Source of the DNA: Azolla caroliniana
Taxonomy: Eukaryota; Plantae; Polypodiophyta
Direction of reading: 5' to 3'
Length of the DNA: 64,000 nucleotides
Assembly (NCBI GenBank): GCA_043228905.1
Contig: JBHGNT010000006.1
Span: forward strand, 19,902,001-19,966,000
Position 1 is the stretch's first letter. Each line of letters begins with the position of its first letter. This document shows positions 1,277-52,259 of this stretch, in pieces. Under the pieces are notes generated by a model. It did not search any database. It was not told the origin of the DNA and was given only the letters and a program-made list of their open reading frames with translations. The translations under genes and the position numbers were made by a program.

Positions 1277-1322
1277 ATATATATATATATATATATGATT
1301 AGGGTTACAACCGGCATACCAG

Positions 1323-1772: not shown

Positions 1773-1774
1773 CC

Positions 1775-13943: not shown

Positions 13944-16928
13944 TTATATCCCCACACCCTTTCCTTGCTTATCCCAAGTAGCATATCTCTGCTTCATGGC
14001 TTCGATGTTTTCTGCCTCCTCGTGCAAGCCAGCACCCATATAAATATTAGCCATAAGCACATAGGCACCACTAAATGTGTTATCTATCTGCAGAACTTGA
14101 TCAAAAACCATCTTGCCAAGCTTCACATTTCCCCATTTTCTACAAGCACCCAATAGTGCAATCCAGACAGTCGGATTGTTAGAATGTGGCATAGCCTTAA
14201 TCACCGAGATTGCGTTATGGAAATGTCCAGTAAATCCAAAACCAACCACCATACATGTATGATGCCCTACATTTGGAATAATCCCATAGTCTCTAATCAT
14301 ATAACCAAAAAGCATTTGGGCTTCACACAATAGCCCAGATCGATTGCATGCAGTTAGAATACATAGGAGTGACACTTCATCAGGCAGCATCCCCTCGCTT
14401 TGCATCCTTCTGAAACAATCCATCGCTTCAAAACCTTGCCCTTGTTGTGCATACCCTGCTATTATTGTGTTCCAAGAGATTGCATTTCGAACTGGAAGCT
14501 CTTCAAGCACTTGTCGAGCTTTTGCAACCAGGTGGCATTTGACATACATATCCACTAAAGCGTTGCCAAGCACAATATCCTTATCCTTCTCTAGCAAACC
14601 CCTACATACAATCTCATCATGAATTTGCTTGCCCTTGTCTGTAGCTCCGATGCTGCCACATGCCTTCAAGGCACAAATGAAAGTAACATAATCTGGAACA
14701 AGACCCTCCTCTTCCATCCTTTCCAAACAATTCAATGCTTCATTACCTTGAAGTTGTTTTGCATAACCTCCAATCAACACATTCCATGAGACTACACTTC
14801 TTGCAGGGAGCTCTTTGAGCACTTCTTGTGCTTTCATAGGATTGCCACATTTAATGTACATATCTACCAAAGCATTACCAAGTGTAATATCTTTATCCAA
14901 TAATCCTCCACTTACAATCTCTTCATGAATTTCTTTTCCCTTCTCTATAACACCTGCATCACCACATGCCTTCAAGATGCATGTAAAAGTGATGGCGTCT
15001 GGAGAGAAACCCTCACTTCTCATCCTTTCAGCACATTTCAATGCTTCATGTCCTCTACACTGTTGGGTATACCCTGTAATAAGTGTAGACCAACCCACTA
15101 CATCTCGAGTTGGAAGTTCTTCAAGCACCTGTTGTGCCTTATCAACCACACCACATTTTGTGTACATTGCCACCAATGCATTACCAAGTGCAATATTCTT
15201 CTCTAGCAAATCCCTACTCATAATCTCATCATGGATTTGTTTACCCATATCAATAGATTTTGTGTTACCACAAGCTTTCAATAATGAAAGAAAGGTGACC
15301 ACATCTGGTGTGAGACCCTCTTTTTTCATTTGTTTGAAACAATTCATAGCTCCATCACCTTGTTCATACTGAGCATACCCTTCAATTAATGCATTCCATG
15401 TCACTACATTTTTTACAGGAAGCTCATTAAGGACCTGCTGTGCTTTAACAACCACACCACATTTGGCATACATATCTACCAAAGATGTTGCAAGAGTAAT
15501 ATCCTCTGGCAGAAAACCCCTATCTACAATTTCCTTGTGAATTTTCTTGCCTTCGTCTATAGCTCTTGCACTGCCAACAGCTTTCAAAATGCAAACAAAA
15601 GAGACTGCATCCGGACAGAGACCCTTTCTTTGCATTCGATCAAAACATTTTAGTGCTTCTTCCCATTGTCCTTGCTGAGCATAGCCTCCAATTAATGTAT
15701 TCCAAACAACTATGTTTTGAATCGGAAGCTCTTCAAGCACTCGTTGTGCTTTTTCCATGAAACCACATTTCGCATACATATCCACCAAAGCATTTCCTAG
15801 CACAAGGTCATCCTTCAGCAATCCCCTACTTACTATCTCCTCGTGAACTTGTATGCCTATACCTATAGTTCCTATCCTGCCACAAGCCTTCAAGATACAA
15901 GTGAAGGTTACAATATCCGGAGAGAGACCCTCCCTTTGCATCCTTTTCAAACAAATGAATGCATTATGACCTTGCCCTTGCTCGGCATATCCTGAAAGTA
16001 GAGTATTCCAAGACACTATATCTCGAGCATGAAGCTCTTCAAGGACTTCTTGTGCCTTCACAACCATACCAAATTTTGTGTACATATCTACCAAAGCATT
16101 GCCAAGTACAACATCCTTAGCCAGCAAGCCCCTACTCAAAATCTCATCATGAATTTGTTTGCCCTTGTCTATAGCTCCTAGACTGCCACAAGCTTTCAAA
16201 ATGCAAATGAAGGTAACCCCATCTGGAAATAGGTGCTCGCTTTGCATCTGCTCAAAACAGTTCAATGCTTTGTGACATTGGCCTTGTTCAGCATATCCTG
16301 TGATTAGTGCAGACCATGACACGACATCTCGAACAGGAAGCTCTTCAAGAACTTCTTGAGCTTTTGCAAGCAGACCACATTTGGCGTACATGGTCACTAA
16401 TGCAGTGCCCAGTACAATATCTTTCTTGAGCAAGCTTCTCTTTATAATCTCATCATGGATTTGTTTGCCTTTATCTATGTCCCTTATGCTGCCACCCGCC
16501 TTCAAGATGCAAGTGAAAGTGAACACATCTGGTGATAGGCCCTCATTTTGCATCCAATCAAAACAGTTCAGTGCTTCATGACTTCTCCCTTGTTGGGTGT
16601 ATCCAGAAATGAGTGCATTCCAAGAGACTATATCTCGAACAGGAAGTTCTTCAAGTACATCTTGCGCTTTTGAAAGTGCGTCGCATTTAGCATACATACT
16701 GATCAAACTACTGGCTAGATAAGGGTTTCTCTCAAGCAAACCCCTTTCAAGAATTTCAGCATGTAACATTGAGCCTTTATAGAGATCCTTCTTCCTCGCA
16801 CAAGCCTTGAGCGAGGCAACAAAAGTAAAAGTTTCCTTACTCTTTTCATAGCTCATTTCCTTATCATGCTTTTCATTTAGCTCTCCATGCATTGAAACCA
16901 TATTTGCTCCATTTCTCAGCACTTTCAC
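13944..16928 (-). CDS. PLS-class PPR protein with E domain (L-S-(P-L-S)x7-P2-L2-S2-E1-E2), organellar RNA-editing-type factor
   Basis: 994-aa ORF with regular VSWNALI..Y / TF..ILKAC / LGNALVDMY.KCG motifs and the E motif WIALLGACRKWGNV. The true start is uncertain (first ATG ~16901). Confidence 0.95.
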   Translation of the reverse strand: MKVLRNGANMVSMHGELNEKHDKEMSYEKSKETFTFVASLKACARKKDLYKGSMLHAEILERGLLERNPYLASSLISMYAKCDALSKAQDVLEELPVRDIVSWNALISGYTQQGRSHEALNCFDWMQNEGLSPDVFTFTCILKAGGSIRDIDKGKQIHDEIIKRSLLKKDIVLGTALVTMYAKCGLLAKAQEVLEELPVRDVVSWSALITGYAEQGQCHKALNCFEQMQSEHLFPDGVTFICILKACGSLGAIDKGKQIHDEILSRGLLAKDVVLGNALVDMYTKFGMVVKAQEVLEELHARDIVSWNTLLSGYAEQGQGHNAFICLKRMQREGLSPDIVTFTCILKACGRIGTIGIGIQVHEEIVSRGLLKDDLVLGNALVDMYAKCGFMEKAQRVLEELPIQNIVVWNTLIGGYAQQGQWEEALKCFDRMQRKGLCPDAVSFVCILKAVGSARAIDEGKKIHKEIVDRGFLPEDITLATSLVDMYAKCGVVVKAQQVLNELPVKNVVTWNALIEGYAQYEQGDGAMNCFKQMKKEGLTPDVVTFLSLLKACGNTKSIDMGKQIHDEIMSRDLLEKNIALGNALVAMYTKCGVVDKAQQVLEELPTRDVVGWSTLITGYTQQCRGHEALKCAERMRSEGFSPDAITFTCILKACGDAGVIEKGKEIHEEIVSGGLLDKDITLGNALVDMYIKCGNPMKAQEVLKELPARSVVSWNVLIGGYAKQLQGNEALNCLERMEEEGLVPDYVTFICALKACGSIGATDKGKQIHDEIVCRGLLEKDKDIVLGNALVDMYVKCHLVAKARQVLEELPVRNAISWNTIIAGYAQQGQGFEAMDCFRRMQSEGMLPDEVSLLCILTACNRSGLLCEAQMLFGYMIRDYGIIPNVGHHTCMVVGFGFTGHFHNAISVIKAMPHSNNPTVWIALLGACRKWGNVKLGKMVFDQVLQIDNTFSGAYVLMANIYMGAGLHEEAENIEAMKQRYATWDKQGKGVGI

Positions 16929-18924
16929 AACCTAAGAGGAACTCTGATACCTATCCATCCATAAGGACTCATATGTGATTATGTGTTTTAGAAAAATCTA
17001 CTGATCTACTCAAATTCTGTCTTAAATATAGGAATGGTTGCTCATTCGCTTCCTTTAATTTACTAGAATTGCATGAGAAGAAAGTAAAGTCATTCCAAAG
17101 AAGTATTGAGTTTGAGTTTGTGATGGATGCATGCCATTAAGAAGTGGTTTATAAGATTGGATCATTACAGTTTATGGTTGTTTGCTATGCCAACGTATCA
17201 TGGCTTGGGAGAAATACAGGGCTCACTCGTACACCAGATATGTTGCACCCAATCACCAAAACATCTTCTTCGAACGCAAAAATCACACACCCTTGCATTC
17301 TTAACTCCACTCACCTTACCTGCAATCCATATCGTTAATTCTGTTTGGCTAATGTCTCACTCTCTTTGATATGAGACAAGATGTTGAGCCCCTAGCAAGG
17401 CATCCCATCAATTGTGCAGTTTCTGCCTTGAAGAAATTTAGTGAGCATACATGTCACACTCTACCTGACTGCTCAGACTTCGATCACAATAGAGTTTGAT
17501 GTCTACACATATTCAGACATGATGTATCTGTGTGACGTTTCTCTCCCAGCCACAATGTCCTCTAGGCTCTCAATTGCTACTCATATTACAATTCTCAATC
17601 TTCGTATGCTGCATGTTAGCTCTGCACACGTTACATGAGAATGTTTCTTTAGATCCTATAAGTCATATTCAACCTCTACAATAAAATTTATCCATCTAAA
17701 TATCTTTGTTTTCTTTTCATTTTTTGATCGAGAAACACAACTTTCATTAGAGCTTGCTTTCCCCACGTTTTCAACCATGATCTATCCCTACACAGGTTTC
17801 TCTCCTGAGACACAATGTGGACACTCTATTGCAATGCTTATTAGTAAAATAAACAACAAACATTACATGAAAAATGTTTCCTTTGATCCAAAAAGTCATA
17901 TCTAGATTCCAATTACAATAATACAATCCATCTATCTATTACTTCATCTTCTCTTCCTCATACAAATACAAAAGCTTATATTAACCTATACCAATATCTC
18001 TTTGTCTCTGTCGAGCAGTTGGTTTAGCATTTTACACAATCACATCAAAGTCATAAAATTGAAAGAACCGAAGTTCAATCATCACCCCGAGCTCATCCCC
18101 ATCCCACAAATCACAATCACACTCCTGACAACATTACGAAGATGTTTACCTATCCATCTATCTCTCTCTAACGTGTTGAGGAGTCGACATAGAGCGGGCA
18201 GCAATGGAAACTGTGAGTACAAGAATACAAGGCATGTGGGCCATACCATCACCAGATCATGGAGATAATTGCTTTCCATATCCAATCCGCCCGAGGAGAG
18301 CCAAATGCACTTGGTGAACGTCATAATAGCCTTGCTCCACCACACCGATCAACTGTGGATACTATGTCCCCTCACCATTTCAACTCATACACATTAGTTA
18401 TGCATTTCATGGTTACAAATCATCTCCAGAATCATTTCACTGCATGCATTAAGATCATTATCATGAATCTACTAGATTTTTCTTTTTTTGTTTCAGTATT
18501 GGCAACATCATTTCACCATATTTGTGGTTTGTATTATAGGCCGACGTAGGCCTCTTGTAGGCATTTATACCTCTCTATCTATCTAGATCTTTGTCTCTAT
18601 CTCTATCTCTATCTATCTATATATCTCCCTATCTCTCTCAACATCAACCAAACAAACAAATTGTCCTGAACATCTCTCAATATAAGTGTTTCTGAACACA
18701 AAGATCTCACCTTGTTACGTCGAATTTTCTCGCCATTGCAGAGGATCCTTGAAGAATTCCTTCCAGAAGCGGACCATCCTTTCACAGGGACGATTCAAGC
18801 TCCCCTGTTTCGCCATAGCTAGAGGAGGAGGCCGACGCCATGGCCATGGCCAGATAGTCCATTCGGGTCCACGAACTATTGCATTTTTACAAAAATGGCC
18901 CTCCACTTATGCATTCTTTCAAAG

Positions 18925-24995: not shown

Positions 24996-25189
24996 ATAGA
25001 GGTTGTTAGAGTCAGGGTATCAAAAACACGCGCACTTTTTTAGATAAAAGATCTGACGGTGCCATATTGCACGGACCCTCGGAAACGCGTCCTGCACAGT
25101 CCGTGGTCATGATTCCCTCGTAGGCCTCGTTATGATTTGGTAGCAAATAGGGACGACCACATGGTATGATATGTATGTATGTGTGACAG

Positions 25190-25895: not shown

Positions 25896-26312
25896 CGCGA
25901 TTACTTATTAATGGAAATGTTGTTTACAACAATTATTTATCTCAATCTGAATGTATTTATCTCAATCTGAATATTGTGGATGATCTGAATGTATGGTTTT
26001 AAACCAATCGCAAGTTGTGGTATTGTAAACGCGATTACTTGTTAATGGAAATGTTGTTCCCAACAATTATTGTGGATGTTCTGAATGTATGGTTTTAAAC
26101 CAATCGCAAGTTGTGGTATTGTAAACGCGATTACTTGTTAATGGAAATGTTGTTCCCAACAATTATTGTGGATGTTCTGAATGTATGGTTTTAAACCAAT
26201 CGCAAGTTGTGGTATTGTAAACGCGATTACTTGTTAATGGAAATGTTGTTCCCAACAATTATTGTGGATGTTCTGAATGTATGGTTTTAAACCAATCGCA
26301 AGTTGTGGTATT
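25896..26312. repeat. 96-bp tandem repeat (~4 copies)
   Basis: CGCGATTACTT starts at 25896, 26030, 26126 and 26222. Confidence 0.95.
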
Positions 26313-26336
26313 GCCCAAACCTTTTAAAATTAATTA

Positions 26337-28066
26337 TGGCTCATGTCCAACCCTACTTGCCTGGTGAATATGGATCTCCCGCAAGGCAACCGTTCATCTT
26401 GGTGCTCCAAGATGAATGGATGTTAGAGATGTGTGAGCGACTGTCGATAAACAACTCTTGGGCAATCGACTCCACGTTTAAAACAAACCAATTTGGCTTG
26501 CCATTATATGCAGCTGTGGCTCCAAATGCCATGGGAGTTGGTATCCCATTATGGTACATGATATGTAGTTCTGATAAGGGGTCTAACCATGAGCAAGTAG
26601 CTTTAGAAACTTGCTTGAGAGTCATATTTGCACGGATGCCCAATGTGAGGCCAAATGCCATAGTCATCGATAAAAGTTGGACATCGTATAATGCCATAAG
26701 TAATGTGGTTGCAACAGACCGATTATCTTGGATAGTTACAAATGGGCAAAGGTCGCAAACACATTGTCGACTTTTGTTGTGTCACTTCCATGCAAAAAAA
26801 GCATGGTTGGACAACTTGTTGCCAAAGGTAAGTGCAAGTGAGAGAAACCACCTTTATAATCGGATGTGCCAACTCATGCAATGCATTACGGAATCCACAT
26901 TCAATGCCCAATGTGAGGACTTAAAGGTAGAATATGCAAACAAGCCAGGTGTTTGGCAATATATAGAAGGAGGATGGTGTGGCTTGACATGTGTGTGGAG
27001 GAAACTGTGGCCCAAATTTGGTAGAATGTTCAACTACGGACATGTTGACACTACCAATCTTGTGGAGAGACATTGGCAGTTTATCAAATATACTGCCTTA
27101 AGAGGGAGGATAAACCGATCAATTACCGATCTTGTGCATGTTTTAATCGGGGACAGTCAAACTGGCACTTGCATCGGGGGTACTGTTATTGAATGGTACA
27201 AGCAACCACAAGAAATATGTGAGAGTGGTAGATTTGCACCACGTGCAAATTGTAGGGATCAAACAACTAGACTTAAAGAGGCCGAAAGGCTACTAGAGAG
27301 GTATGAAACTAATAATGCGACAATGCATATTGTGGACGAGCCTCGATATTGGTTTAAAATATTGAGCTTGACAAAACCGGATGTATGGTATAATGTATTG
27401 CTCCAATGTTCATATTGTGATTGCCACGACCCTGCGAGTAAATGTAAGCATATACTTGGCATCAGGATGATTATTGAGAGGCACATGCCACATCTATGTG
27501 GGTCATTGCCTTTTATAGATCATGCAACCTATATGCGCAATGACCATTTCACAGAGACGGAAATGGAGACAGAGGTAGAACCAGTCGAGGAGACAAACCC
27601 TATAACATCACGAGTGGAGGAATGTTTGTCGAAATTACAAACGCTTGAGGGGGCTATTCAATGTTTTAAGCAAGGGTTACAATCCCTCGACTGTGCAGCA
27701 ATTTTGGCATGTATGGAGTCCATTCAAGAAACAAGTGAGACATTGGTGTATCACACAGGTGCACCGAAACCAACTAACGAAGAAGACCGTGGATCCATAG
27801 GGCGTAAGCAAGCAATTGGTGCAAAAAGGGGAGCATCAATCAACATTTCACAAGATCTTATTGGCAGCTCCCCAAACACTTCCAAGGCACACACAGGAAA
27901 AATGCAAAGAGGCGCAAGTCGAGCTAGGAGGCGGTTGCCAATATGTGCGACAGATAAAATGCGATGCTTGCATTGTGATGCCTTGACCTTTAGATCAAGG
28001 GACTCAAATGTTGATTGTTGCAAGAATTGTGGTCGCATCTTGCCATCATCTCCGGATGAGCCATAA
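26337..28066 (+). CDS. Mutator/MULE DDE transposase with SWIM Zn finger (N-terminus absent)
   Basis: WAIDSTFKTN (D1), IVIDKS (D2), LCHFHAKKAW (CxxH), TTNLVERHW (E), SWIM CDC...CKHI, C-terminal CxxC...CxxC. Confidence 0.92.
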
Positions 28067-31800: not shown

Positions 31801-32256
31801 TAACGTGGACCTAACCGAGATATGAGATTGTGGCTGGAGCACTCAGGGTACACATGCAGACAAAAGCCATGAACTTTTCTTGTTGAATTACAGCGTCAAA
31901 TCTAATCACAACACTAATTCACCTTTGTCATGTCTATCCCCATGTTTAGTTTAACGGTTTAACCTAATTTATGTGGGGTTAAATTTTGTAAGTACTAAGG
32001 GGATGATAGATAGTATAAGGACAAATGTGGTCACTCATGTATAGATGTATTTGTTGTGTGACATGTGGATTATCATATGCTGATGGGTAAGGAGGATTGA
32101 AGAGTCCATATGGTTGAAAGTTTCTTGTAAAAAAATTCTATGCTTTCTGGATTGTAATCTGTGTTTTAGCTCTTCTTAACTGTGTGTACTATGAACCTTG
32201 TTTACCATGCACATATTTATTAACTTTACGTCAACCAACTTTTTCGTAATGTGCAG

Positions 32257-32879
32257 CTTTGTCGAGTGAGGTTGTGACACAAACTTCTGGAGCATCTGCT
32301 GTTAGTGTGGTAAAGGGTCCCGATTCGAACATTGTGTATGATGAATCTGTCCATGAGAGATATCCTCCAGGTGACCCAAGCAAGCAGGCATTCACATACT
32401 TCGTTATGACAGGAGGAAGGTTTATCTATGCATCTATGATCCGCTTGGCTATACTGAAGTTCATATTGAGTATGTCAGCAAGTAAAGACGTTTTAGCTCT
32501 TGCTTCTTTAGAGGTTGATCTGAGCAACATAGCACCTGGCTCAACAGTTACAGTGAAATGGAGAGGCAAGCCAGTTTTTATTCGTCACCGAACTGATGAG
32601 GACATTAAATCGGCAAATAATGTGACTCTAAGTGAGTTGAGGGATCCTCAAACAGATTCAGAGAGGGTCATTTCCCCTCAATGGCTTGTTGTAGTTGGAG
32701 TTTGTACTCATCTTGGATGTGTTCCATTGCCGAATGCTGGGGAGTATGGAGGTTGGTTCTGTCCTTGCCATGGTTCTCACTATGATATCTCTGGAAGAGT
32801 AAGGAAAGGCCCTGCCCCGTATAATCTAGAGGTGCCGACATACAAGTTCTTAGAAGAACAGAAATTGCTGGTTGGTTAG
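32257..32879 (+). CDS. RIP1: Mitochondrial cytochrome bc1 Rieske iron-sulfur protein, last exon
   Basis: CTHLGC and CPCHGS 2Fe-2S motifs, [12 protein letters not shown], plant-type [12 protein letters not shown]; TGCAG acceptor at 32256. The upstream presequence exons (~28900-30160) were not resolved. Confidence 0.95.
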
Positions 32880-33566
32880 ATGCGCGTGTGCAACCCTGAT
32901 TTGTGCTCAAAGACCTGTTTTGTTTTTATAACTGGCATTAAGCTTTTGGTTTCTACTGTAAAGGTAGAAATGAGGAATTTGCTGTGGAAAACATCAATAA
33001 GTTGCATCTCAAGAAGTCCCTTTACAATGTAAATGAGGAACTGGACTCTTTGTCTAGAGCATGGAGCTCAGAAACATTAGTTTGATAATTTGATATTCTT
33101 GAACATTTAAGATAATACTTATTTTCAACTTTATAGTTCTTTGATTACCTCACAGTGAATCATTCAAATTATTATTCGTAATTTGTAATCGTTTCACATT
33201 CTTGTTCTGGTAGCTTAAAATGAAGAGCTTTGGCCTACCTTAGTTCAATGAGTGATTTATTAGTCTTCTTAGTCTTAGTCTTCATGCAAAGCTTATAACC
33301 TTAGTTTTTCATGGAGTACATGTATGTCATATTGTTATGTTGAAATTGGATGATAGTGGTTACTTGTTTACAAGATAAAGACAATTAATTTTATTATGTC
33401 TTCTTTGCAACAAAATGAAGATGAGTGTTGTTGAGGGAGGTATTCTGATTTTCCTACTATTCTACTCGATTTGTTTGCATTGTCAGAAACTACGTAGATG
33501 GCATTTTATTAAATGTACAACAAGAAGATACTACTTTGGTTAGATTCTATATGTAATATGCATAGT

Positions 33567-33833
33567 TTTGACCCTGCTATTTTATCAACTAAACAAGACA
33601 AATGTATAATTAATTTTTGGATGTGAATGACTTGTATCTTCTTAGATGCTACCAAGTTAAAATTTTGTGTCCCCTAGAAAATGCGCCTTATTAATTTGCT
33701 TTGACCCTGCTATTTTATCAACTAAACAAGACAAATGTATAATTAATTTTTGGATGTGAATGACTTGTATCTTCTTAGATGCTACCAAGTTAAAATTTTG
33801 TGTCCCCCAGAAAATGCGCCTTATTTATTTGCT
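33567..33833. repeat. 133-bp tandem duplication
   Basis: TTTGACCCTGCTATTTTATC...GCGCCTTATT(A/T)ATTTGCT occurs twice, nearly identical. Confidence 0.95.
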
Positions 33834-35039
33834 GGTTAGTTTTATTTGGTTTTGATGGGGTTTTCTTCCCAATCATTTTTCTAACCCTTGCTACCCCTTA
33901 TTAGCCATGCGGATTATCCATAGGGTTTTGACTTGTGAGCCTATTATGTGTTTGCTTTTAATCAAGTAATTATCGTAACTTGATCACTCAAGTAATTAAC
34001 TTATAACTACTTTAAAAACCTCTATCCACAAATTATAAGGTTAATGTTTTTCCCTACATATGAGTGAGTCATTCCAAAGGACTATTTATATGCATTAAAT
34101 TGTAACAAAGAAAGCAAGGTGGGCTCATATTTATTAGAGCTTGGTTTGGATTTGTTAGAATTAAAACATCTTTTAGTTCCTAACACTAATTAACATTGGA
34201 ACCACGGTTACAAATTATTCCTAGGGAATAAACCTTGACTTTAAATATTTCTTTTGAGGTAACTTAACGAATGCTCACAAATGTTCTTGTATCGAAAAAC
34301 TACTTTTTGTCTAGGTAATGAAAATGGAATGCATTTTAGGAATCTTGATAAATACAAAGAGACAATTTGTTGAAAATATCCCTTGCATGTTCCTCCCAAG
34401 GGAACTCAACCCACACCGTCAAGTCTTATATACTCGAGCAATAACTATTCTATAATTTGTACCTCTTACGTGAGCAGATATTTCGAAAGCAAGCCTACTT
34501 GGTTAGAAGGTAAAAGTAAAGATGTGCTCATTAGCAAAATCGTGAATAAGAAGCACATGGATATGACTTTTTGCAAAGAGTACAAATCATGAATCTACAT
34601 TATCTATACATTGACTGGATTTTTTACGATGCATTGCAAACATGGGACTCAAAGAAATGACCAAACTTTCAAAAAATGTATTTTATTTGTTTGGGTGTAG
34701 ATAATTTCAAGTAATTAGAAAAATTTAACTCTCCTTATATAATTGAAATTGAACGAGGCTGAAGCTTGTAGGGAAACTATACATAATTTACAATTATTAC
34801 AAAATAAAATTGCGTGTAAAGATATTTATTATTCATCTATGTACATAATTCAGAGTTATTAGGGGGAAAATTAAGGGTTCCTATTTGAAAAGGAAATAAA
34901 AGAAAATGTTGTAGTTTGCAAAAAAAAAAAACTACTATGTAAAATCATTCATTATGTGTATAGATAGTCTAGTGTAAGTAGATACTATTTTGACAATAGT
35001 TTAGAGTAATATTTATACTTGAAATTTCATGGCTAAATG

Positions 35040-36310
35040 CAAACTTCGAAGTTTCTTGTGAGGCCGTATTGTACCTTAGAGATAGAATTGGATAAAAAAA
35101 AACATTCTATTCTAAGGGAACATCCTCTTCTTGACAAGAAGGAACCACTAAATGATTTACGTATTTTAGTTTACGTCAAAGTGAAGGTACTTTTCTCCAT
35201 CATTAATCTTAAACTACCACAATGATTCATTAACAAAAAGTTCTCTGCACTAGAAAGGAATTGACCTACAAGTGTAATAGAGTTGTATGCGATAATTCAA
35301 GAACTCAAGACATGATGATGTTCATTGTTCACTACTTGTGCGGAGCCGAGGTTCGAAGCTTGAACAACCATTCCATGTCAAAATGCTTACACAATAAACT
35401 AGAACCAATGCCACAATAGATGGGAACATCTCATGTAGGAGTTCCACATAGAAATTGAGTATTATAGGGAGAAAGATAATATAATGGTCTGTGCTTTGTC
35501 TACACTTGTGTATGAGATGAGTTTCAACATGGTTGAAAGTGAGATGTCACACACTATACATGAAGCTCAGAAAATAGGCACATTTATTTAGAATAAGTGA
35601 ATTGGGGCCAACTATCTACATAAAAATGAAACCAATATCCATTTTCCCATTAGGCCATCACCCTCAAAGTTCTATCTATTGACCCAGGGTTGCTAAAGAG
35701 AAAAGGAAAATATGTGTTATGCAGATTTCCAGTGTCAAGAACCAAGGTATCAAGGATTGCATGAAAGTCCATGTGTTGGACATTCAAGCATGAAGAAAAA
35801 TTTGCAAAAGTTAAGTGCCACAATTGGGGGTGTCATATTGACAAGGATTTCCCAGACTATGTGTCTTGATGCGTTGCTTGTCCTACTTCGAACTTCTATG
35901 CGTGAGAGAGTATGTTATCTTATAATGTTGCAACCTTTTGCCCATCCTAAATAGGGAATGGCAAAGCATGTCCATGGATTTCTTTGTGGGTTTGCCTTGT
36001 ACTAAACCTTAACACATATCAACATTGGTTATGGTTAAATAGTTGACAAGGATTTCTAGGCGGCATTCCATGTTTGTGGGCCACAATTCATTTCAAACTT
36101 CTAGAAGCACTTGTGAAAGATACTTAGGATTTCCTTTAAGCTCTCTTAAACCTATTGTCCACAGAGTGCCATCCAGAATTGAATTTAGAACTAAGATGTT
36201 AGAGTAGTACCTTTGTTGCTTCATCAATTACCATTAGGATGATTGGGTTGACTGCTTGCATTTTGCAAACTTTGCTTATAATCATTCAATAAATTCTTCT
36301 ACCAGACATA
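35040..36310 (+). mobile_element. Degraded Ty3/gypsy RNase H-integrase
   Basis: FSALERN*PTSVIELYAI, EKDNIMVCALS, HESPCVGH, MSMDFFVGLP, DDWVDCLHFANFAYN in broken frames. Confidence 0.75.
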
Positions 36311-37709
36311 CTTCAATATTCTCTGAAACACAAATCGTTACCACACATCAAAAACATTGTATACATATCACTAATTATCGACACCTCAACACATGACTTG
36401 GAACTTGTGGTTGTGACCTACTTCTATGATGCTAGTTATGGTTCAATGCTCTACACCTTTTAGATGAAACAAAGCAGTCCACACCATCAAGCTACACAAA
36501 AACAATATTCCAACACATTCCCAATGTTGGCTATGGTGGGGCTCAAATTCTTTCTCGGAATTGACCCATGGGAGGATATATGTTGACCTTATTTGATAGT
36601 TTGTAGAATGATATCAACGAAAAACTAGTCATGTAGTAATGTATGTCTCCAACAACCAACCCCCCATTGAGTTCTTGTTCTCTATGGAGGATATAGAAAA
36701 CACTCTACCTCCCAAGAGACAGTGTCTCCTTTACCCATCCCCACATACTTTGAAGATATACCTAACATCATCATTCCAAAACTATGGTGGCACTTGATGA
36801 ATGTGCCAAGCGAACTACATGATATATGTCGAGAGTCATCCCAAGTCATTGATGCAACCAACAATGACAATGTTCAACATGCACATCAAAAGCTTGTATT
36901 CTAGGCAACATACATGTTGATGTTTGATTGGTCCCGCTATTCTTTGTTGTTCAAACCTTAAATTTCAAGGTAGCATGTATCGAAAATTACAAGACCTATA
37001 TCTTTACTAGATATGGAGAACTACATTAAAATTAAATGTTGGCTTACTATCACGGTAATGTTATGTAGTGTGGCACACCGATGGTATTTTATGTTTGTCA
37101 CAAGCCCTTCCCTCGGAAGTAGTAATCAAGTGTGGTTAAGCACATTTAGCCCATTCCTTTCCTTAATCTCTCATTCTTTTGTTCATCATTAGTTTGATCT
37201 GTAATAGTTCCTATGATTAATTGATTGGGACCATGAGCTCGTGTTTAGTATCATATAATAAATTGGTAACGTTTCATAGCTTGGAAATTTGCTGAAGGGA
37301 AAAATCATCAGAACTTTTGTAATTTGGAAAAATTTATAAAATATTGTAGGTTTTACTCAGAAACCCATTATGGAGAATACAGATATTTCCATGGCTTATG
37401 ATGTTCCAGAGAATGGCCACTTCTGAACGCATCATGACATGAGGATTATGATAGCCCCATATTGAAAAGCCCTCGTATCCTTCCTTCTTAACCACCTTTT
37501 ACATAGAGAATGATGAGACAGCAAATTAAATCAATTGTTGTTGCCCTAGTTTAACACATAGGTATAAGGCTAAGTATGTGGCCATTGTATTATATAAGCC
37601 CAATAGAAGATAATCATTGTAATGTTAAGGCTTAAGCATTTCATGTAGAGAGAAAGAGAAAGAGAAAGAGAAAGAGAGAGGATTCATGAAGCTCTGACTT
37701 AGTTAGTAT

Positions 37710-39341
37710 ATGAAGAACTTAGAAGGTTTCACCTTTGTGGCCTTACTCAAGGCTTGTACCAAGAGAAAGGATGTCCAGAAAGGCATCAGATTACATGATG
37801 AGATCTTAAGAAGAGGTCTGCTTGACAGAAAGAACCCTTATGTAGCAAGTACTTTGATCAATATGTATTCCAAATGTGGTATGCTTGAGAAAGCAAAATA
37901 TGTGCTTGGAAAGCTTCCGGTTCGAGACATAGTCTCTTGGAATGCACTCATGTCTGGGTATGCTCACCATAAGCAATTTCATGAAGTGCTAGAATGTTTT
38001 GATCGCATGCAAAAGGAATGTCTTTCGCCGGATGTGGTTAGTTTTATATGTATCTTGAAGGCATGTGGTAGTACAAGAAACATAGAAAAAGGCAAACAAA
38101 TCTATGATGTCGTTGTGAATAGCGGGTTGTTGGAGAAACATGTGGAGCTCGGAAATGTTTTGGTGGATATGTATGCAAAATGTGGTATGCTTGAGAAAGC
38201 GAAGCAAGTGTTAGAAGAGCTTCACATACGGAATGTTGTCTCTTGGTCTTCATTAATTGGTGGATATGTCCAACAAGGTCAAGGTGAAGAAGCATTGAGT
38301 TGCTTTGAGAGAATGCAAAGTGAAGGATGCCCTCCAGATGCAATCACATTTAGTTCTATCCTAAAAGCTTGTGCTATTACTGCAGCCATATGTAAGGGTA
38401 GCATCATTCATGAAAAGATTGTGAGTAGGGGATTGTTAGAGAAGGACATCGTTCTTGGAACTTCTTTAGTGGATATGTATGCTAAATGTGGTATGCTTGC
38501 AAAAGCACAAAAGGTTCTCAAAGAGCTTCATATTAAAAATGTTGTCTCATGGAATGCATTAATTGCAGGATATGCCCAACAAGGGCAAGGTCATGAAGCA
38601 TTGAGCTGTTTTGAGCATATGCAAAGCAAAGGTGGCCCTTCTCCAGATGCAGTTACTTTCACTTGTGCTTTGAAGGCTTGTGGTAGCATAGGAGCAATAG
38701 ACAAGGGCAAACATATTCACGATGAGATTTTGCATAGAGGATTTTTGGAGAAGGATACTATGCTTGGTAATGCTTTGGTGGATATGTATGCCAAGTGTGG
38801 TATGCTTGCAAAAGCACGACAAGTAATTGAGGAGCTTCCTGTACGAAATGTAATCTCTTGGAATGCACTAATTTCTGGGCATGCCCAAGGAGGACAAGGT
38901 CGTGAAGCATTAAACTGCTTTCAATATATGCAAAGTGATGGTTTATCACCTGATGAGGTTACTTTCCAATGTGTTTTACGAGCATGCACTCATGCAGGAT
39001 TATTAGATGAAGCTCAGTTGATGTTTGCAAACATTTGTAGAAATAATACCATCATCCCGAGCATAGAGCACCATAGTTGTGTATTGGTTGTTTTGGGATG
39101 TGCTGGGTACTTTGATGAAGTGTTATCCGTGACTAAAGTGATGCCATTTTCTGATCATCCTATAGTTTGGCTTGCAGTGTTGAATGCTTGTAGAAAATGG
39201 GGCAATGTGAAACTTGCGAAATTTGCTTTCAATCAAATAGTTGAATTTGATCATAATTGTGCTGCTGCAGATGTTCTTATCTCTGATGTTTTTGCAGCTG
39301 CTGACATGAAGGTCGAATCTATGAAATTGAAGCATGAGTGA
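37710..39341 (+). CDS. PLS-class PPR protein, E subclass (~14 motifs)
   Basis: 543-aa ORF with PLS triplets and the E motif WLAVLNACRKWGNVKLA. Confidence 0.93.
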   Translation: MKNLEGFTFVALLKACTKRKDVQKGIRLHDEILRRGLLDRKNPYVASTLINMYSKCGMLEKAKYVLGKLPVRDIVSWNALMSGYAHHKQFHEVLECFDRMQKECLSPDVVSFICILKACGSTRNIEKGKQIYDVVVNSGLLEKHVELGNVLVDMYAKCGMLEKAKQVLEELHIRNVVSWSSLIGGYVQQGQGEEALSCFERMQSEGCPPDAITFSSILKACAITAAICKGSIIHEKIVSRGLLEKDIVLGTSLVDMYAKCGMLAKAQKVLKELHIKNVVSWNALIAGYAQQGQGHEALSCFEHMQSKGGPSPDAVTFTCALKACGSIGAIDKGKHIHDEILHRGFLEKDTMLGNALVDMYAKCGMLAKARQVIEELPVRNVISWNALISGHAQGGQGREALNCFQYMQSDGLSPDEVTFQCVLRACTHAGLLDEAQLMFANICRNNTIIPSIEHHSCVLVVLGCAGYFDEVLSVTKVMPFSDHPIVWLAVLNACRKWGNVKLAKFAFNQIVEFDHNCAAADVLISDVFAAADMKVESMKLKHE

Positions 39342-42182
39342 AACAACCTTGAACATAAAGGTTGTAATAGCCTTTGAAAGAATTAAGAGAGGTAAAGCAC
39401 GTACTATCCTTCAAATTATATTTGAAAATGTGAGTTGTATGCCCCTCACAGACACTATGCTTGAAAAGCATGTGGCAGAATCTTTGCATGAAAGAGAAGG
39501 TACAAAAGATTGAATCCATGAAACTGAAATATGCAATGAAACAGCCTTCAATGTAAAGGTTGCAACATCCTTTCTGAATGATTAGGACAAATAAAAGAGA
39601 TGTCAAAGTGAAGGGCTGATAAGATTCTCCTCTTTCCTCTCATCCTAATGCTAGTAATTCCACTCGAGGCATATGAGAGTTGAGGGGATAGACAGACAGA
39701 AATAAAGATGTATTAATGTCTACTACTAAAGGCCAAAGGGGGTCTATGAGACAAATCAAGATTATGAATATGAATAAAGTCATGTTGTCAATACTGAAAC
39801 GAAAATAAAAGCTCTAGATTTCTTAAGATTCATGATAATGATCTTAATGCGTTGGTGGCATGCAGATCAGACATGACGAGCAATGATATCCATGGTCTGG
39901 TGATGATATGGTCCCATGTAACATATCCTGCTACCTGCTGTCTCCATTGTCATCGGCATTCCTTAACGCTCTCTATGATGATCCTTTGGTGTGTTGTCAG
40001 TGGAGGTGTGGGGCTATGGAAGAATTCAGTGATGCACGATTGTCGTCGCATCTTGTCCTAGTATAATGGTTGAATCACCTATGTATTTGAAGTTCGAGCA
40101 AGTTTTGGCCAAAGAGTCATAGATCGGCCCTTCCCATCATTTGTCAAATGGTGATGAAGTCCACGTATATAGGGTGATATACTTTAGCCCAACGTTTCTT
40201 TATTTCAGCTATGATATTGTCTAAGCTCTTGACATCACTTTCTTTTGCTAGGGAGAGTTCTACATTACTCCTCGTAGTGCCTTTTACCCTGTCATTTTGT
40301 CAACTTGGCTTCATATTCTCGAGGTTAAGGTCAAGTTCGCCTTCTTCATCATTAGTAATTTTCACCTTGATCGCTTCAAATTCAGTTCGAACAAATTTGA
40401 TATATTCTTCAAAGGATGGAGATTTGACGTTGTAAGGCATTCATCAAATAAAATTTGACCTAATAAAATTGGGAAGTGTTTTCTAAAGGTTCATGAAACG
40501 TCCATCCAATGTTTCAAGACTTAATGCGTGTGTAGTTTATGTGTCTATGTGTAGTTGTGTAGTTGTGTGGGTGGCACTTGAGGGATAGAATAATTACTTG
40601 TGCGTTAGAGAAGAAGAGAAAAAGAACTCCAAAAAATACAAACATTAGCTGAAACAAAAAACCCTAAAAAGGAAGAAAAACTTCTAAAACTAAGACAAAG
40701 AAACCATAAAAGTGCAGCCAGAATGAAACCCTAAGGTTCAGCAAGAACAAAACCCTAAAAATTCAGTACAAAGGAAACGCTAAAAGCACAACAAAGCAAA
40801 ACCTTTAAAACTCAGCAGAATAGGATTTAGTCAATTTGAACATCCAATACATATTGCCAAACCCCATCACTCTTAGCAAGGGTTTTGGATCGGCATGCTT
40901 TAGGCTACCACCAATTGTCTATGAAAAAGGTTGTTTTGGTTTGCAATAATATGCTAATTAAATGTCTTTGTCAAATGTGATCAACATAAGGATCTTGATT
41001 TGTTGGAGACAATATATGGTGATGCACATCAGAGTTTCAAGAACTACCTCATACATGCTTCAACAACAATTTTAAGGCAGAATTAAAGCCCAACTTATGG
41101 AATTGGAGGATATCCAGATGGTTTGCAACTGAAGATATATGCATTTAGGATACTTCTATGTTGATCAAGAGTACAGTTTACTTTCAGCCAATATCCTGAC
41201 AGAATGGCTATCAGAAATTTAAACAATTAAGGGTGCTCTTTTTGTTGTTGTTAACTTATCTCTAAAATCTAATGATGTGCAAGATATGTCCATAATCTTA
41301 GGGCATCAATGGATTTGTGGAGCCTTCGTGGAGAGTCTCATAGCTTTAGATCAATCCAAAGAATTTTTTTTGCAAGTCAAGAACACACACGTGGTGCAAA
41401 GAAAACATTGAAATTTCATCCATGTCGATAGAGTCCCGTTTCCATGGATGAATGTGTAGTATATTTATTCTTTATAGCTTGGCACATTTGTATACTAGTT
41501 TAAATTCGTAGTTTGTGTGAGTTTGCATGAATGAGCCGTCTCTACACATCTGACTCATTCTGACATAGATGCACTAATGTACTGATGAATTTCAGCTGCT
41601 ATGTTTGCACTAATGTAATGGCTATGAACCTTTAAAAGCTTTGTTCATGCATGCATAGCCACCGGCTGAAGTAGTAGTGATGGCTAACAAAGCAGGGAAA
41701 CATAAAAGTATGGGGTGTTCCTTTTGTAGGAGAATTATACGGTACTGGAAGACTTCCAAGAGATATGGCTTACTCTCCAAAATATGAAAGGATTTTGGCA
41801 AGTAAGCCCTCTCTCATGGAATCAACTAATCTAATCTTAACCGAATCAAGTAGAGTTTTCATGAAACAATGCCAGCTTCATTGGACAAGTAGACATGGAG
41901 GGTGTGGTTATTTGTCTTGTTGATGTACTGTGGCTAGCTGTAAAAGCATCATATGTAAGGAACAAAATCATACTTTTTTCTCATCATTTTCTATTTTTTC
42001 ATACATGAAACGGTCTCGGGAAGAAGAAATTCCTAAATCATGGAAATTCATCATACAACCAACAAGCTTCAATAGTTTGTCGATTTCTCTGTCCCAACAT
42101 ACACCCTGAAACCTAGTCGACTGTAAGGTTCTCTAACAGAGATTTAAATTAATGGGCAGAAATTTATGCATTAAAGTTAAGA

Positions 42183-44072
42183 ATGGAGGGCATGGAAAGA
42201 CATAATGCCTGTGTGGCCTTAATCAAGGCATGTACAGGGATCAAGGACCTGTCTCGACTTCATGCAGAGATTCTAAGAAATGGATTTTTGCATGGAAAAA
42301 AAGGACACATTATAGCTACCACCCTGATTAGCATGTATGCAAAATGTTGCCTTTTCTCAAAGGCCCAAGAGCTTCTTGAAAACCTTCATATCCAAGATGT
42401 AGTCTCATGGAATGCACTCATTGCAGGGTACATAAAACAAGGTCATGCCCATGAAGCCATAAGATGCTTTGAAAATATGAAGAAAGAGGGCCATGTCCCT
42501 AACCAAGTAACCTTCATATGCATCTTGAAAGCATGTGGGCTTGCAAGGGACAGGTGCAAAGGTAAGCAAATTCATGAAGAGATTGAGAGAAAGGGGTTTT
42601 TGATGATGTTAGAGAAGGAGGTAAATGATAATGTGGTTGTGCTTGGTACTTCATTGGTGGATATGTATGTGAAATGGGGGGATTTGGCTGAAGCCAAACA
42701 AGCTCTAGAAGGGCTTCAACTCCGAAATGTGGTCACTTGGACATCCATCATAGTAGGATATACCCAACAGGGACAATGTTATGAAGCATTCGACTCTTTC
42801 ACACGCATGCAAGCAGAGAGCCTCGCCCCGAATATGATCACTCTCGTTTCTATCCTGAAGGCATGTGGGAACATAGGTCAAATACACAAGGGTAAGCAAA
42901 TGCATGTGAATGGGGGCTTACTAATGAAGAAGGAGAATGAGATTGGCATGCTTGGCTCTGCTTTGATTGCAATGTATGCAAAGTGTGGTGTACTCTCTAA
43001 AGCTCGACAGGTGCTCGACGAGGTTTGTACCGATGATGTGGTTTCATGGAATGCACTTATTTCAGGTTATGCCCATTGGGATCAAGCTCACAAATCAATC
43101 CTCTCTTTTGAACGCATGCGAATGCGTGGCATCTTGCCCGATGCCTTTAGTTTTGCTTGTGTCTTGAATGCATGTGGTGAGACAGGGGATATTAGTAAGG
43201 GTAAACAAATCCATGAAGAGATTAAGATGAATGAAAACCGGATGTTAGAGAAGGATGTGGTGCTTGGCAATGCTTTGGTGGATATGTATACCAAGTGTGG
43301 TTCTTTAGAAACTGCAGAAAAGGTGCTCAAAGAGCTTCCGATCCGAAATGTGGCCTCGTGGAATGCCCTCATATCAGGATATGTTCGGCATCAGCGGTAT
43401 CATGAGGCATTTGATTGGTTCGAAAAGATGAGAAGTAGTGAGAAGGGCTCCTCAAAACCTGATGCCATTACATTCCTTTGCATCTTGCAAGCATGTGGGA
43501 GCATAGGGGCCATTCATAAGGGGAAACAAATACACAATGAGCTTGTTTCCAAGGGCTTTCTCAAGAATAATATCAGCCTTGGCAATGCAGTGGTCGACAT
43601 GTATGCACAATGTGGTATGCTTGCCATAGCACATCAAGTGCTCGAGGAGCTTCCTATTCGAGATGTGGCTTCTTGGAATACACTAATGTCCACATACGCC
43701 CACAAAGGGCAAACCCATGATGTCTTGTATTGTTTTGAGCACATGCGAAGTGAAGGCTTGTCTCCAAATAAGGTCACATTCACTAGTGTTTTAAGTGCAT
43801 GCGGTCGTTCAGGACTCTCTAAGGAGGCTGAGTCACTCTTTAGCTATACCACCAAAAGATATGGTGTTATTCCGAATATAGAGCACCATAATTGCATGGT
43901 CGCTATTTTAGGGTGTGTTGGGCATTTCAGTAAGGCAATGTCATTAATGAAGTATACACAATCTTTGGATAATATGGTTCTCTGGGTTACATTGTTGGGT
44001 GCGTGTAAAAAATGGGGGAATGTGGAGCTCGGGACATTGGTATTTGATCAAGTTTTGCAATTAGACAATTGA
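42183..44072 (+). CDS. PLS-class PPR protein with truncated E domain (~17 motifs)
   Basis: 629-aa ORF ending WVTLLGACKKWGNVELG...QLDN*, where the paralogs continue into E2. Confidence 0.9.
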   Translation: MEGMERHNACVALIKACTGIKDLSRLHAEILRNGFLHGKKGHIIATTLISMYAKCCLFSKAQELLENLHIQDVVSWNALIAGYIKQGHAHEAIRCFENMKKEGHVPNQVTFICILKACGLARDRCKGKQIHEEIERKGFLMMLEKEVNDNVVVLGTSLVDMYVKWGDLAEAKQALEGLQLRNVVTWTSIIVGYTQQGQCYEAFDSFTRMQAESLAPNMITLVSILKACGNIGQIHKGKQMHVNGGLLMKKENEIGMLGSALIAMYAKCGVLSKARQVLDEVCTDDVVSWNALISGYAHWDQAHKSILSFERMRMRGILPDAFSFACVLNACGETGDISKGKQIHEEIKMNENRMLEKDVVLGNALVDMYTKCGSLETAEKVLKELPIRNVASWNALISGYVRHQRYHEAFDWFEKMRSSEKGSSKPDAITFLCILQACGSIGAIHKGKQIHNELVSKGFLKNNISLGNAVVDMYAQCGMLAIAHQVLEELPIRDVASWNTLMSTYAHKGQTHDVLYCFEHMRSEGLSPNKVTFTSVLSACGRSGLSKEAESLFSYTTKRYGVIPNIEHHNCMVAILGCVGHFSKAMSLMKYTQSLDNMVLWVTLLGACKKWGNVELGTLVFDQVLQLDN

Positions 44073-45760: not shown

Positions 45761-46342
45761 TCAACTACCTTGAGCTTGAGATCCGTGGCCTCCACCAGTA
45801 TTGGCAGACATTTGATAGGTAGATTGGACATATTGTTGTTGAGGATACATATAGCCACCTGATGGTGGTTGTTGAGCCATATGCATATGCCCACTTGAGA
45901 TCCCATTAGAACCTCCTCCATCTTTGCCAACCACCACTGGATCTCCTTGCTTTGCTACAGTAGACCTCTCCCCTTCAAACTCCCTATACTTGTGAAGATA
46001 AACTTTTAGTGGCTCAATGTAATCCTCAAACCCCAAAGTGCTCATGGCCCATAACAGATCATCACCATTTACCGTTTTTCTCTTCTCTCTCTGACACTTA
46101 TCTGATGCCTCTCCAGTTATGAAGCTTATGAATTCAGAAACACATTCTTGGAGAGTCTCTTTAGCATCTTTTGATATTTTGGCATTAGCTGGTAAAGCTC
46201 TCTTCATGATTCGGCTTACATTTGCGATGGGCAATAGTCGGTCTTGTTCTTTGATGCTATCACTTCCTCCATGATGTCCACCTGAATCATCATCAGACTG
46301 ATGACTGTCCGGGCTACCTTGGCGGTAGTTATTTGCCGCCAT
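45761..46342 (-). CDS. NF-YB: Nuclear factor Y subunit B (HAP3), non-LEC1 type
   Basis: [16 protein letters not shown]...[25 protein letters not shown] histone fold. The ATG at 46342 follows a TTGTAG acceptor, so there is a probable 5'UTR intron with an upstream exon near 48400-48500. Confidence 0.95.
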
Positions 46343-48028
46343 AAATCTACAACAAGCATGAGCCAATTTCTAAAATTCAAATATATAAACATTGATGGCA
46401 TCATAGCATATATTGCACTCTAAAAATTTTAGCAGTTGAGAGTTTGAGTCTCATGCAATGGGCTTTTATGTTACAGTCATTATAAAAACTCATCCTAATA
46501 TGCTTGGAGTTAATCCTCTATCTTTTGCTTGTCCTTAACGGGATGAAATGAAAATTCATACAGATGCTGCATGGCTGTTGTTAGCTAGTGTCATGAGACA
46601 TTTCTGGTTAGCTCCTATAACAAGCAAACCCCTCATTTTGTGTTACGAAGATATGCTGCTCTCATTGTTGTTTCAGATCATGCCTCGTTAATTTGATCCT
46701 AGTAAATTTTAATAACTACATTGATGCTGCCACATTTCCACAATAACAAAGAGTGAAAAGGATAGCATTGCCCAGTAGGAGACAATAATAATAGGCAGTG
46801 GTTAATGCTCACCAAATGGCCATTTTCCGATGTTTTGTTATAACTTTCGACCATTTTCTATGATTGAGGTTTTAAAAAATTCCCCCAGCTCTATAGCAGA
46901 ATTGAACAATTCACTTGCCAAAGGAAATTCGTCTATACTTGTAGTATTTCATAGGATATAAATTCCACCAATGATTTGTACTCGGGTGAGTCCTTTAGGT
47001 TCCAAACAGTAAAACACTGCATCATCATCACTGCCTGATGCTCTTTTTCTCTCCAAATCTCAAGATTACCTAAATTTTCAAACCTGCTTTTTCTCAAAAA
47101 CTCTAAATTTTCTAAAATTATAATCACATATATAGACATCCAGGATATTCATCATCATCCAAATTACCACAATGTCATGTGGAGCCGTTTTTCTCTCTCA
47201 AAAGTGCCTGAATTTCTATATAGACTGTAGGATCATCGTCCCAATCATCCTTCAATGCCATAAGAGATGGGTGGAAACTTTTCTTGACACTCAAAACCCC
47301 TAATTTACTATAATCCAATGCTTTACCGTAGAAACCTTAATAAAATAAGTAAACTAAGGTATAATCATCATCATTATGAGCAGAGTATTTGGTTCAAAAC
47401 CCTTAAATTACCATAATGCCATGTCACAATGAAAAGCCCGGTTTTCGCTTAAAGACACTAATTTAATTTCCTAATCACAGTTTCAGGATTCATACATGAT
47501 GAAATGGGTTAATAAAAATTAAATTTTTTTAAGAGAAGAGAAGGATTTTTCACGTGCTTATTATTTATGAGGAAATGGAGGTCTCTAAATTTAGGCTTTT
47601 TAACAGAAGAAATATGTTTATCTAATGATTTAGTCATGAGAAATTTGGTGTTTAATACTTTAGGTATTTAGTTTTTTGCGAAAAAAGGGCGTTTCTGCAC
47701 GACATTAATAAGCAATTAGGGTCTCTACATGACATTAATATGTGATTAGAATTTCAACATGAAATTATTTTATGTGATTGATGTTAAGCAATATATACAT
47801 ACACTATTGTAATATGGACTAAGTGTATGAGCTGAAAAAGTTTAATAAAATGTAAAAAAACGGTAAGCTAAAAAAAAGAAAAAAAGCTACATGATAAGTT
47901 CAAAGACATCCAAAAATCTGTGCCTGGGTAAATAAGGATAATAAAAGCACTGAGGATTTTATATAGGAAAACAGTTAACAGCATTCAAAACAGAGCAATG
48001 GGGTTAAGGATTGTTCAAAACAACCAAC

Positions 48029-52110: not shown

Positions 52111-52259
52111 GTAAAATTTTATAACTAATGGAATGGAAGGAGCTTGTTTTCGGAAAAGAAAGGAAGAAAAGACACAAATCGCCCACAAAGGGAGGGAGGG
52201 AAGAAGAAGATGAAGGTTTTTTTGGGTTCTATGGCCTTCTTCCTCTTTGGACTTGGGTA

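What the first reader, a model, noticed from the sequence alone, without database searches (positions are those of the whole stretch)
37352..37600. Independent PDF-motif relic upstream of the second PPR gene
Seen: 37352-37395 reads FTQKP(fs)LWRIQIFPWL. 37478-37581 reads SFLLNHLLHRE**DSKLNQLLLP*FN(fs)HIGIRLSMW, where GAA TGA TGA GAC is two G>A changes from E-W-W-D. Both pieces lie just 5' of the PPR ORF on the same strand. Finding the motif in front of a second paralog makes chance similarity less likely and suggests the PDF module is ancestral to this PPR clade and is repeatedly lost.
Basis: partly seen in the sequence, partly recalled or inferred. Interest (0 to 1): 0.75.

Follow-up and report, generated by a model that had tools for sequence, protein, structure and literature searches.

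The report
Chance match beside real PDF-PPR family
The proposed relic scores no better than shuffled DNA, but the gene behind it likely belongs to a large, apparently undescribed family of plant RNA-binding PPR genes that begin with a small module known to bind single-stranded DNA in other proteins, a module this copy has likely lost.

Summary
'PDF' is the OSB-type single-stranded-DNA-binding motif, not peptide deformylase. The letters at 37352-37600 read as stated, but they are not a detectable relic. nhmmer finds nothing there. A frameshift-aware codon profile gives 9-16 bits, p 0.08-0.83 against shuffles in 23 of 23 settings. Scores as high occur 87-162 times in this window. A relic as old as this gene's split from PDF-bearing paralogs would nearly always score higher. 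At least 70 loci in this genome encode a PDF motif in frame with a PLS-PPR array, most split by the same phase-0 intron as the OSB-like gene. The window's first PPR gene has a true two-exon relic (E 7e-10, 2e-11). All three window PPRs nest among PDF-bearing genes. The fusion also occurs in Adiantum, Pteridium, Diphasiastrum and Sphagnum. This scan noted it earlier in a peat moss; eight literature searches found no description. Interest: stretch alone about 0.05, family about 0.55.

The parts
37352..37397 (+).
   Evidence: Letters confirmed; LW..W part sums to -5.6/-2.4 bits; region p 0.08-0.83
37478..37581 (+).
   Evidence: Best path 13-16 bits; 87-162 equal or better places in the window; W-to-P spacing 21 codons against 22-24 in 40 of 40 motifs measured; no other copy of 37225-37645 found in the genome
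37045..37243 (.). Dispersed repeat, 68-87% alike to copies elsewhere
   Evidence: 42 other matches among 40 of 69 candidates scored; extent
35000..36450 (+). Decayed Gypsy-like pol (RNase H / integrase-like) fragments; bounds approximate
   Evidence: Read by eye from translations; family label recalled, not tested by a profile
37645..37680 (+). (GAGAAA)n simple repeat; GA repeats also lie in the PDF intron of several intact paralogs
   Evidence: Sequence; paralog introns by eye
37679..37726 (+). Weak candidate remnant (RIHEALT*LVYEELRR) of the end of PDF exon 2 or of the linker, out of frame with the PPR ORF
   Evidence: 18.8 bits, p 0.018 in a window chosen after the fact; best site in 33001-37730 in 5 of 18 settings; chance sites upstream of PPR3 reach 17-19 bits; also aligns to the linker of paralog L126
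37707..39341 (+). PPR2: 544-codon open frame, PLS-type PPR array with partial E motif, no DYW, no PDF; ATG at 37710
18711..18816 (-). PPR1 exon 1: short N-terminus plus first half of a PDF motif, one frameshift near its end, GT donor at 18710 in the family position
   Evidence: nhmmer 18782-18728, E 6.7e-10; 34-48 bits with models holding this half, above 150 of 150 shuffles
16901..16998 (-). PPR1 exon 2 start: second half of the PDF motif with a frameshift and a TAG at 16934 where the family has W; then in frame with the PPR array
   Evidence: nhmmer 16988-16901, E 2.1e-11; 40-56 bits with models holding this half
13944..16931 (-). PPR1: 995-codon open frame, PLS-type array with E motif
42153..44072 (+). 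PPR3: 639-codon PLS-type open frame, no PDF detected upstream

Best explanation
The stretch 37352-37600 matches the PDF motif no better than shuffled DNA, and the PPR gene behind it is likely a member of a large PDF-plus-PLS-PPR family that lost its PDF exons, probably by deletion or replacement of its 5' end. Shown: the family exists in this genome (short exon 1 with the first half of the motif, phase-0 intron, exon 2 with the second half, a linker and the PLS array); PPR1 in this window has a broken PDF; PPR2 has none detectable. Inferred mechanism of the family: the PPR array picks an RNA sequence (established for PLS proteins). The PDF motif, which binds single-stranded DNA in OSB1, likely adds a sequence-independent grip on single-stranded nucleic acid next to the array. 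A minority of copies carry a DYW deaminase domain; the rest would act as binding or specificity factors. The module is likely an accessory, so duplicates keep the array and lose it. My odds for the single-strand-grip role are about 0.5; a protein-docking or targeting role takes most of the rest.
For: No signal at the stretch with working positive controls in the same window. Four-fold-site distance from PPR2 to its nearest PDF-bearing paralogs is about 0.7-0.8 for both branches, so about 0.35-0.4 on its own. In leave-one-out simulations a full-length relic at 0.4 or 0.5 fell to 13.9 bits or less in 1% and 4% of 72 trials. Family: 91 of 99 genome hits lie in open frames of 385 codons or more; 29 of 30 top loci and 70 of 79 re-fetched loci run in frame into PPR repeats. 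The motif hits a protein named OSB3 in Amborella at E 2e-37 and folds at pLDDT 90.5. One contig of a related organism differs from PPR2 at 8 of 486 letters, against 5-10% in non-coding neighbours, a weak hint that PPR2 is kept without PDF.
Against: A relic older than about 0.7 substitutions per site cannot be told from noise (57% missed at 0.8). The distance estimate rests on 60-70 sites and is the minimum of 45 comparisons. The best shuffle p is 0.08, and the stretch lies on the right strand close to the ORF. The tree is the quick one, its deeper rows were chosen for having PDF, three rows (L103, L118, L126) were cut at a later repeat, and its supported branches force only 1 change. Binding, localisation and editing were not tested.
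Confidence: 0.75

Rival explanations
1. The stretch is a true but very old relic of one or two intronless PDF motifs, decayed beyond statistical recognition.
For: Right strand, 126 nt before the ORF. H*..**DSK.NQ are mostly one-base neighbours of P..WWDNR.NK. F-x-H...W and W-to-P(+7) spacings fit after one frameshift. Best p 0.08-0.13. One clade member (L024) is intronless and two-PDF fusions exist.
Against: Equal scores occur about once per 0.8-1.5 kb of strand in this window. The age bound from synonymous sites is too young for such decay. It needs two frameshifts, three stops and a two-codon deletion. The signal is not at the place where paralogs have exon 2.
Confidence: 0.12
2. PPR2 descends from a PLS gene that never had PDF; the module spreads among paralogs by exon shuffling or gene conversion rather than being lost repeatedly.
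For: 17 of 47 rows in the clade have no PDF within 1.5 kb. The tree is poorly resolved, and PDF-less PLS genes outside the clade were not sampled.
Against: The same intron position and clade-specific exon-2 tail (WV.EEL.RR) run across the clade. Half-decayed states are seen directly: PPR1, L093 (exon 1 only within 1.5 kb), L106, L038, L138. All deeper rows sampled and the moss and lycophyte relatives carry PDF.
Confidence: 0.12
3. 'PDF' means peptide deformylase and the stretch is a fragment of such a gene.
For: The abbreviation only.
Against: PF01327 has 8 matches in the genome, none in the window. No significant DNA similarity of the region to those loci (best E 0.87).
Confidence: 0.01

Closest known systems
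OSB1-4 / PTAC9 organellar ssDNA-binding proteins (Zaegel et al. 2006, seen only through passages of PMC6963530, PMC4166229, PMC6451138)
   Same: The ~50-aa PDF motif: the fusion's motif hits Amborella OSB3 at E 2e-37. The intron after WWDNR..K lies at the same place and phase as in this genome's OSB-like gene.
   Different: OSBs have an OB-like domain followed by C-terminal PDF motifs. Here the motif is N-terminal, usually within 25 residues of the start, and is followed by a PPR array. The stretch 37352-37600 has no detectable motif at all.
PLS-class PPR proteins (PLS-E, PLS-DYW RNA-editing factors)
   Same: PPR arrays and E motifs. 9 of 70 fusion loci end in a DYW-like domain by eye; 4 of 4 tested pass Pfam PF14432.
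   Different: An added N-terminal PDF motif, and in most copies no room for a usual transit peptide before it. PPR2 itself is an ordinary PLS protein with partial E motif and no DYW.
PPR fusions with RRM or MORF domains (PMC13386178, passages)
   Same: An accessory nucleic-acid- or protein-binding domain joined to a PPR array.
   Different: Those fusions number 1-6 per seed-free lineage in that survey; PDF fusions number at least 70 in this one genome. 'PDF' and 'OSB' do not occur in that paper's main text; its supplements were not checked.

Membership tests
OSB-type PDF motif (stretch 37352-37600) | Profile score above chance | tested here: not met
   p 0.08-0.83 in 23 of 23 settings; positive controls 34-56 bits
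OSB-type PDF motif (stretch 37352-37600) | Pro-Asp-Phe signature | tested here: not met
   CCC TAG TTT at 37544; TAG is two changes from an Asp codon
OSB-type PDF motif (stretch 37352-37600) | First-half W...F..P pattern and W-to-P spacing of 22-24 codons | tested here: not met
   F, H, H at those columns; spacing 21
OSB-type PDF motif (stretch 37352-37600) | Descent from a PDF motif older than about 0.7 substitutions per site | tested here: inconclusive
   Not detectable at that age; the synonymous-site bound argues against it
OSB-type PDF motif (N-terminus of intact fusion genes and PPR1 relic) | Sequence kinship with named OSB proteins and the P-D-F signature | tested here: met
   PPR1 halves E 7e-10 and 2e-11
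OSB-type PDF motif (N-terminus of intact fusion genes and PPR1 relic) | Binds single-stranded DNA | not testable with these tools
   Reported for the AtOSB1 motif in PMC6963530 (passage)
OSB proteins | OB/SSB-like domain before the PDF motifs | tested here: not met
   First Met within 25 codons of the motif in 41 of 49 fusion loci; Pfam shows only PPR-type families for L017
PLS-class PPR proteins (PPR2) | PPR array followed by an E motif | tested here: met
   PF01535 241 bits, 9 stretches; E motif 23.9 bits, just under the 27.3 cut-off; PLS triplet spacing by eye
PLS-DYW editing enzymes (PPR2) | C-terminal DYW deaminase domain | tested here: not met
   No PF14432 match; the frame ends within the E region
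PLS-class PPR proteins (family) | Import into mitochondria or plastids | not testable with these tools
   No predictor on hand; N-termini before PDF are 4-49 residues, median about 12
Peptide deformylase (PF01327) | Match to the family profile | tested here: not met

The most novel reading that the evidence does not exclude
Seed-free plants have a major, undescribed class of editing-type PPR proteins with a built-in OSB PDF module at the extreme N-terminus. It starts about ten residues from the start codon, leaves no room for a usual transit peptide, and works as a single-strand clamp or import/docking module in place of separate cofactors. Birth and loss of this module shape the large PPR families of ferns and their relatives.
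Probability: 0.35. Interest if true: 0.75.

Novelty: new variant of a known kind. Interest (0 to 1): 0.4.

Why it matters
The stretch itself does not matter: it shows how easily a few Trp and stop codons mimic a motif. The family does. It joins a module known from organelle DNA maintenance to RNA-editing-type PPR arrays in at least 70 genes of one genome and in ferns, a lycophyte and a moss, and it escapes notice because Pfam has no model for it. It gives a direct test of how PPR factors work in lineages with very many editing sites: remove the PDF motif from a DYW-bearing copy and measure binding, localisation and editing. The novelty label refers to the family; the proposed relic alone is not a real feature.

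Tried and rejected
Peptide deformylase reading: rejected. Direct DNA match between the stretch and 16925-18768: none in a blastn of 36001-37710 against the window, as far as the cut output shows. Pairwise DNA alignment to 25 clade paralogs used gap costs that align noise; only the join at about 37705-37730 was informative. Genome search with 37225-37645 returned only itself, which does not show rarity. Public runs: no RNA holder listed; four runs of related organisms were contigs only, and the bin 37397-37653 had no cover, which is no evidence. No exon 1 above chance in 33001-37730. Single-sequence fold failed for the motif (pLDDT about 30-40 there); alignment A3 had a first row out of frame and was not used. 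The motif has no significant PDB sequence match (best E 0.06), no Foldseek match and best VIA Z 2.4, rmsd 3.1, 54 aligned; this does not show a new fold. The tree is the quick version; the careful search was not finished. Zaegel 2006 could not be read.

Full report
Peptide deformylase (PF01327) has 8 matches in the genome and none in the window, and the region is not similar to them. The region in front of the first PPR gene reads WKEFFKDPLQW and, 1.7 kb on, LKHIITYESLWMD. From memory this is the PDF motif of OSB proteins, which reviews describe as about 50 residues, named for Pro-Asp-Phe and responsible for ssDNA binding (passages of PMC6963530, PMC4166229, PMC6451138). I tested the identity: the motif from an intact gene of this genome hits 568 proteins at E<=0.001, among them a protein named OSB3 in Amborella at E 2e-37.

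The observation. To ask whether they exceed chance I needed real motifs. A pattern search gave 8 loci: 2 were intact PDF-plus-PPR genes (L012, L015), 2 were OSB-like exons and 4 were unrelated. Protein searches gave 63, 99 and 80 matches. From 49 distinct loci I built DNA and codon profiles of each half and of the spliced motif. nhmmer found both halves of the first PPR gene's motif (18782-18728, E 6.7e-10; 16988-16901, E 2.1e-11) and no + strand hit in 37352-37600 at E<=200. A codon profile that allows neutral mutation (so TGA scores well at Trp columns), stops, frameshifts and gaps gave 9.0-13.9 bits, p 0.13-0.83 in 18 settings; the two true relics gave 34-56 bits with the models that hold them, above all 150 shuffles. 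Five more settings gave p 0.08-0.32, and scores as high occurred 87-162 times in the window and 26-73 times in 37 kb of control DNA (12 of the 37 control loci). It needs two frameshifts, three stops and a spacing of 21 codons where 40 of 40 measured motifs have 22-24.

Could it be too old to see? The four-fold-site distance from PPR2 to the nearest of 45 PDF-bearing paralogs is about 0.7-0.8, so decay could have run for about 0.35-0.4 substitutions per site. Leave-one-out simulations missed a full-length relic in 1% of 72 trials at 0.4, 4% at 0.5, 18% at 0.6 and 57% at 0.8. The estimate is noisy (60-70 sites, minimum of many), so I leave 12% for a very old relic.

What is there. West of the stretch lie Gypsy-like pol fragments (about 35000-36450, by eye) and a dispersed repeat (37045-37243). 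37225-37645 found no other match in the genome. A (GAGAAA)n repeat follows, then 37679-37726, reading RIHEALT*LVYEELRR out of frame with the ORF. This is where paralogs have the end of exon 2 (W.EEL.RR) and the linker. It scores 18.8 bits, p 0.018 in a window picked after the fact, and chance sites before PPR3 reach the same; it is a weak candidate only. No exon 1 was found in 33001-37730. PPR2 is an unbroken 544-codon PLS frame with a partial E motif and no DYW.

The family. 91 of the 99 matches lie in open frames of 385 codons or more; some are near-copies on small contigs. Of the top 30, 29 run in frame into PPR repeats. Of 79 loci fetched whole (66 of the other 69 hits and 13 of the top 30; three OSB-like hits left out), 70 passed a strict filter, 2 more were long frames (700 and 787 codons) that missed it, 6 were short or broken and 1 gave no profile hit. 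Of the 70, 49 have the motif split by an intron, 4 are intronless and 17 had no exon 1 within 1 kb. The intron follows WWDNR..K in phase 0, as in the OSB-like gene on contig C15, which points to an OSB gene as the donor of the module (inference). An in-frame Met lies within 25 codons of the motif in 47 of 49 loci, against 10 and 20 of 49 in the other frames; it is the first Met of the open stretch in 41 of 49. So most of these proteins likely start just before the motif. 9 of 70 end in a DYW-like domain by eye, 4 of 4 tested pass Pfam, and three keep HSE and CxxC. The motif folds as a compact helix-strand-helix domain at pLDDT 90.5. The same build occurs in Diphasiastrum complanatum, Adiantum capillus-veneris, Pteridium aquilinum and, with DYW, Sphagnum compactum: 10 of 24 proteins chosen carried PPR repeats. 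That this genome is a fern's is my inference from these relatives.

Ancestral and repeatedly lost? Of the 28 closest paralog loci of PPR2 (one internal match left out; four near-identical pairs included), 9 have exon 2 and 1 has only exon 1 above the best control score; 18 have neither within 1.5 kb. In a quick tree of 65 rows the three window genes sit in an SH-aLRT 97 clade with 27 PDF, 3 relic and 17 PDF-less rows, and all 18 deeper rows carry PDF, though they were chosen for it. The label needs 14 changes (17.3 when shuffled), but supported branches force only 1. Separate lesions in PPR1, L038, L093, L106 and L138 show decay directly.

How it likely works. Established: PLS arrays read RNA sequence and DYW domains deaminate cytidine; the OSB1 PDF motif alone binds ssDNA (passage). 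Inferred: the fused motif adds a non-specific grip on single-stranded nucleic acid beside the array (about 0.5), or serves docking or targeting given the very short N-termini. Its frequent loss suggests an accessory role. One contig from a related organism differs from PPR2 by 8 of 486 letters, against 5-10% in non-coding neighbours, a weak hint that PPR2 persists without it.

Novelty. Eight full-text searches (listings only, except the passages named) found no description of a PDF-PPR fusion. A 2026 survey of editing-factor fusions has no 'PDF' or 'OSB' in its main text (supplements not seen). The library lacks most subscription papers, and Zaegel 2006 was not held. This scan noted the fusion before in a peat-moss genome (e1-7304442, e1-7304346), found after I had reached my reading. 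New here: its scale in one genome, the shared intron, the short N-termini and the decay series.

Verdict. The proposed relic is a chance match (interest about 0.05). The family it pointed to is real and a new variant of known parts (about 0.55). Overall 0.4.

Noticed in passing
window 41754-41821 (+): Long hairpin with 21-nt arms, 330 nt before PPR3; -33.4 kcal/mol, z -4.3, 0 of 200 shuffles as stable; no Rfam match. Could be a microRNA precursor or a small foldback element.
   Followed up: partly
window 39700-39920 (+) and 18233-18578 (-): Shared sequence (70% over 150 nt, 85% over 41 nt) between the DNA behind PPR2 and the PDF intron of PPR1; probably a small mobile element.
   Followed up: no
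window 39309-39375 and 39506-39573 (+): 78% direct repeat of the end of PPR2, also similar to the end of PPR1; suggests a duplicated, decayed E-region tail.
   Followed up: no
L016/L018 (G000:C15:1941700-1945200): OSB-like gene with at least two intron-split PDF motifs, although PMC4166229 (passage) lists OSB as lost in 'Pteridophyta' from Selaginella alone. Its OB-like domain was not checked.
   Followed up: partly
L163, L168, L175, L176, L182, L184, L190, L208, L215: PDF-PLS genes with DYW-like ends; several have PG.C.W-type gates and altered HSE motifs (HSD, HSS, CSE, NTE).
   Followed up: partly
L081/L082 about 1400-1450: Closest paralogs of PPR2 read PDFR then RRREI in frame, as if most of exon 2 were deleted (by eye); the DNA profile gave only 4.6 bits.
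   Followed up: partly
window 26291-28066 (+) and 25144-25752 (+): 591-codon MULE/SWIM-like transposase frame with a ULP-protease-like frame before it (labels recalled, not tested).
   Followed up: no
window 32250-32879 (+), 45761-46369 (-), 52125-52652 (+): Rieske iron-sulfur exon, NF-YB-like exon and RNase Z-like exon (labels recalled).
   Followed up: no
window 245-3632 (+) and 59197-61334 (+): Decayed Gypsy-like and Copia-like retroelement frames (labels recalled).
   Followed up: no
proteins P0051, P0137, P0002: PDF motifs with a kinesin domain, with a SUV3 C-terminal domain, and 13 matched stretches in one Kingdonia protein; may be gene-model joins.
   Followed up: no
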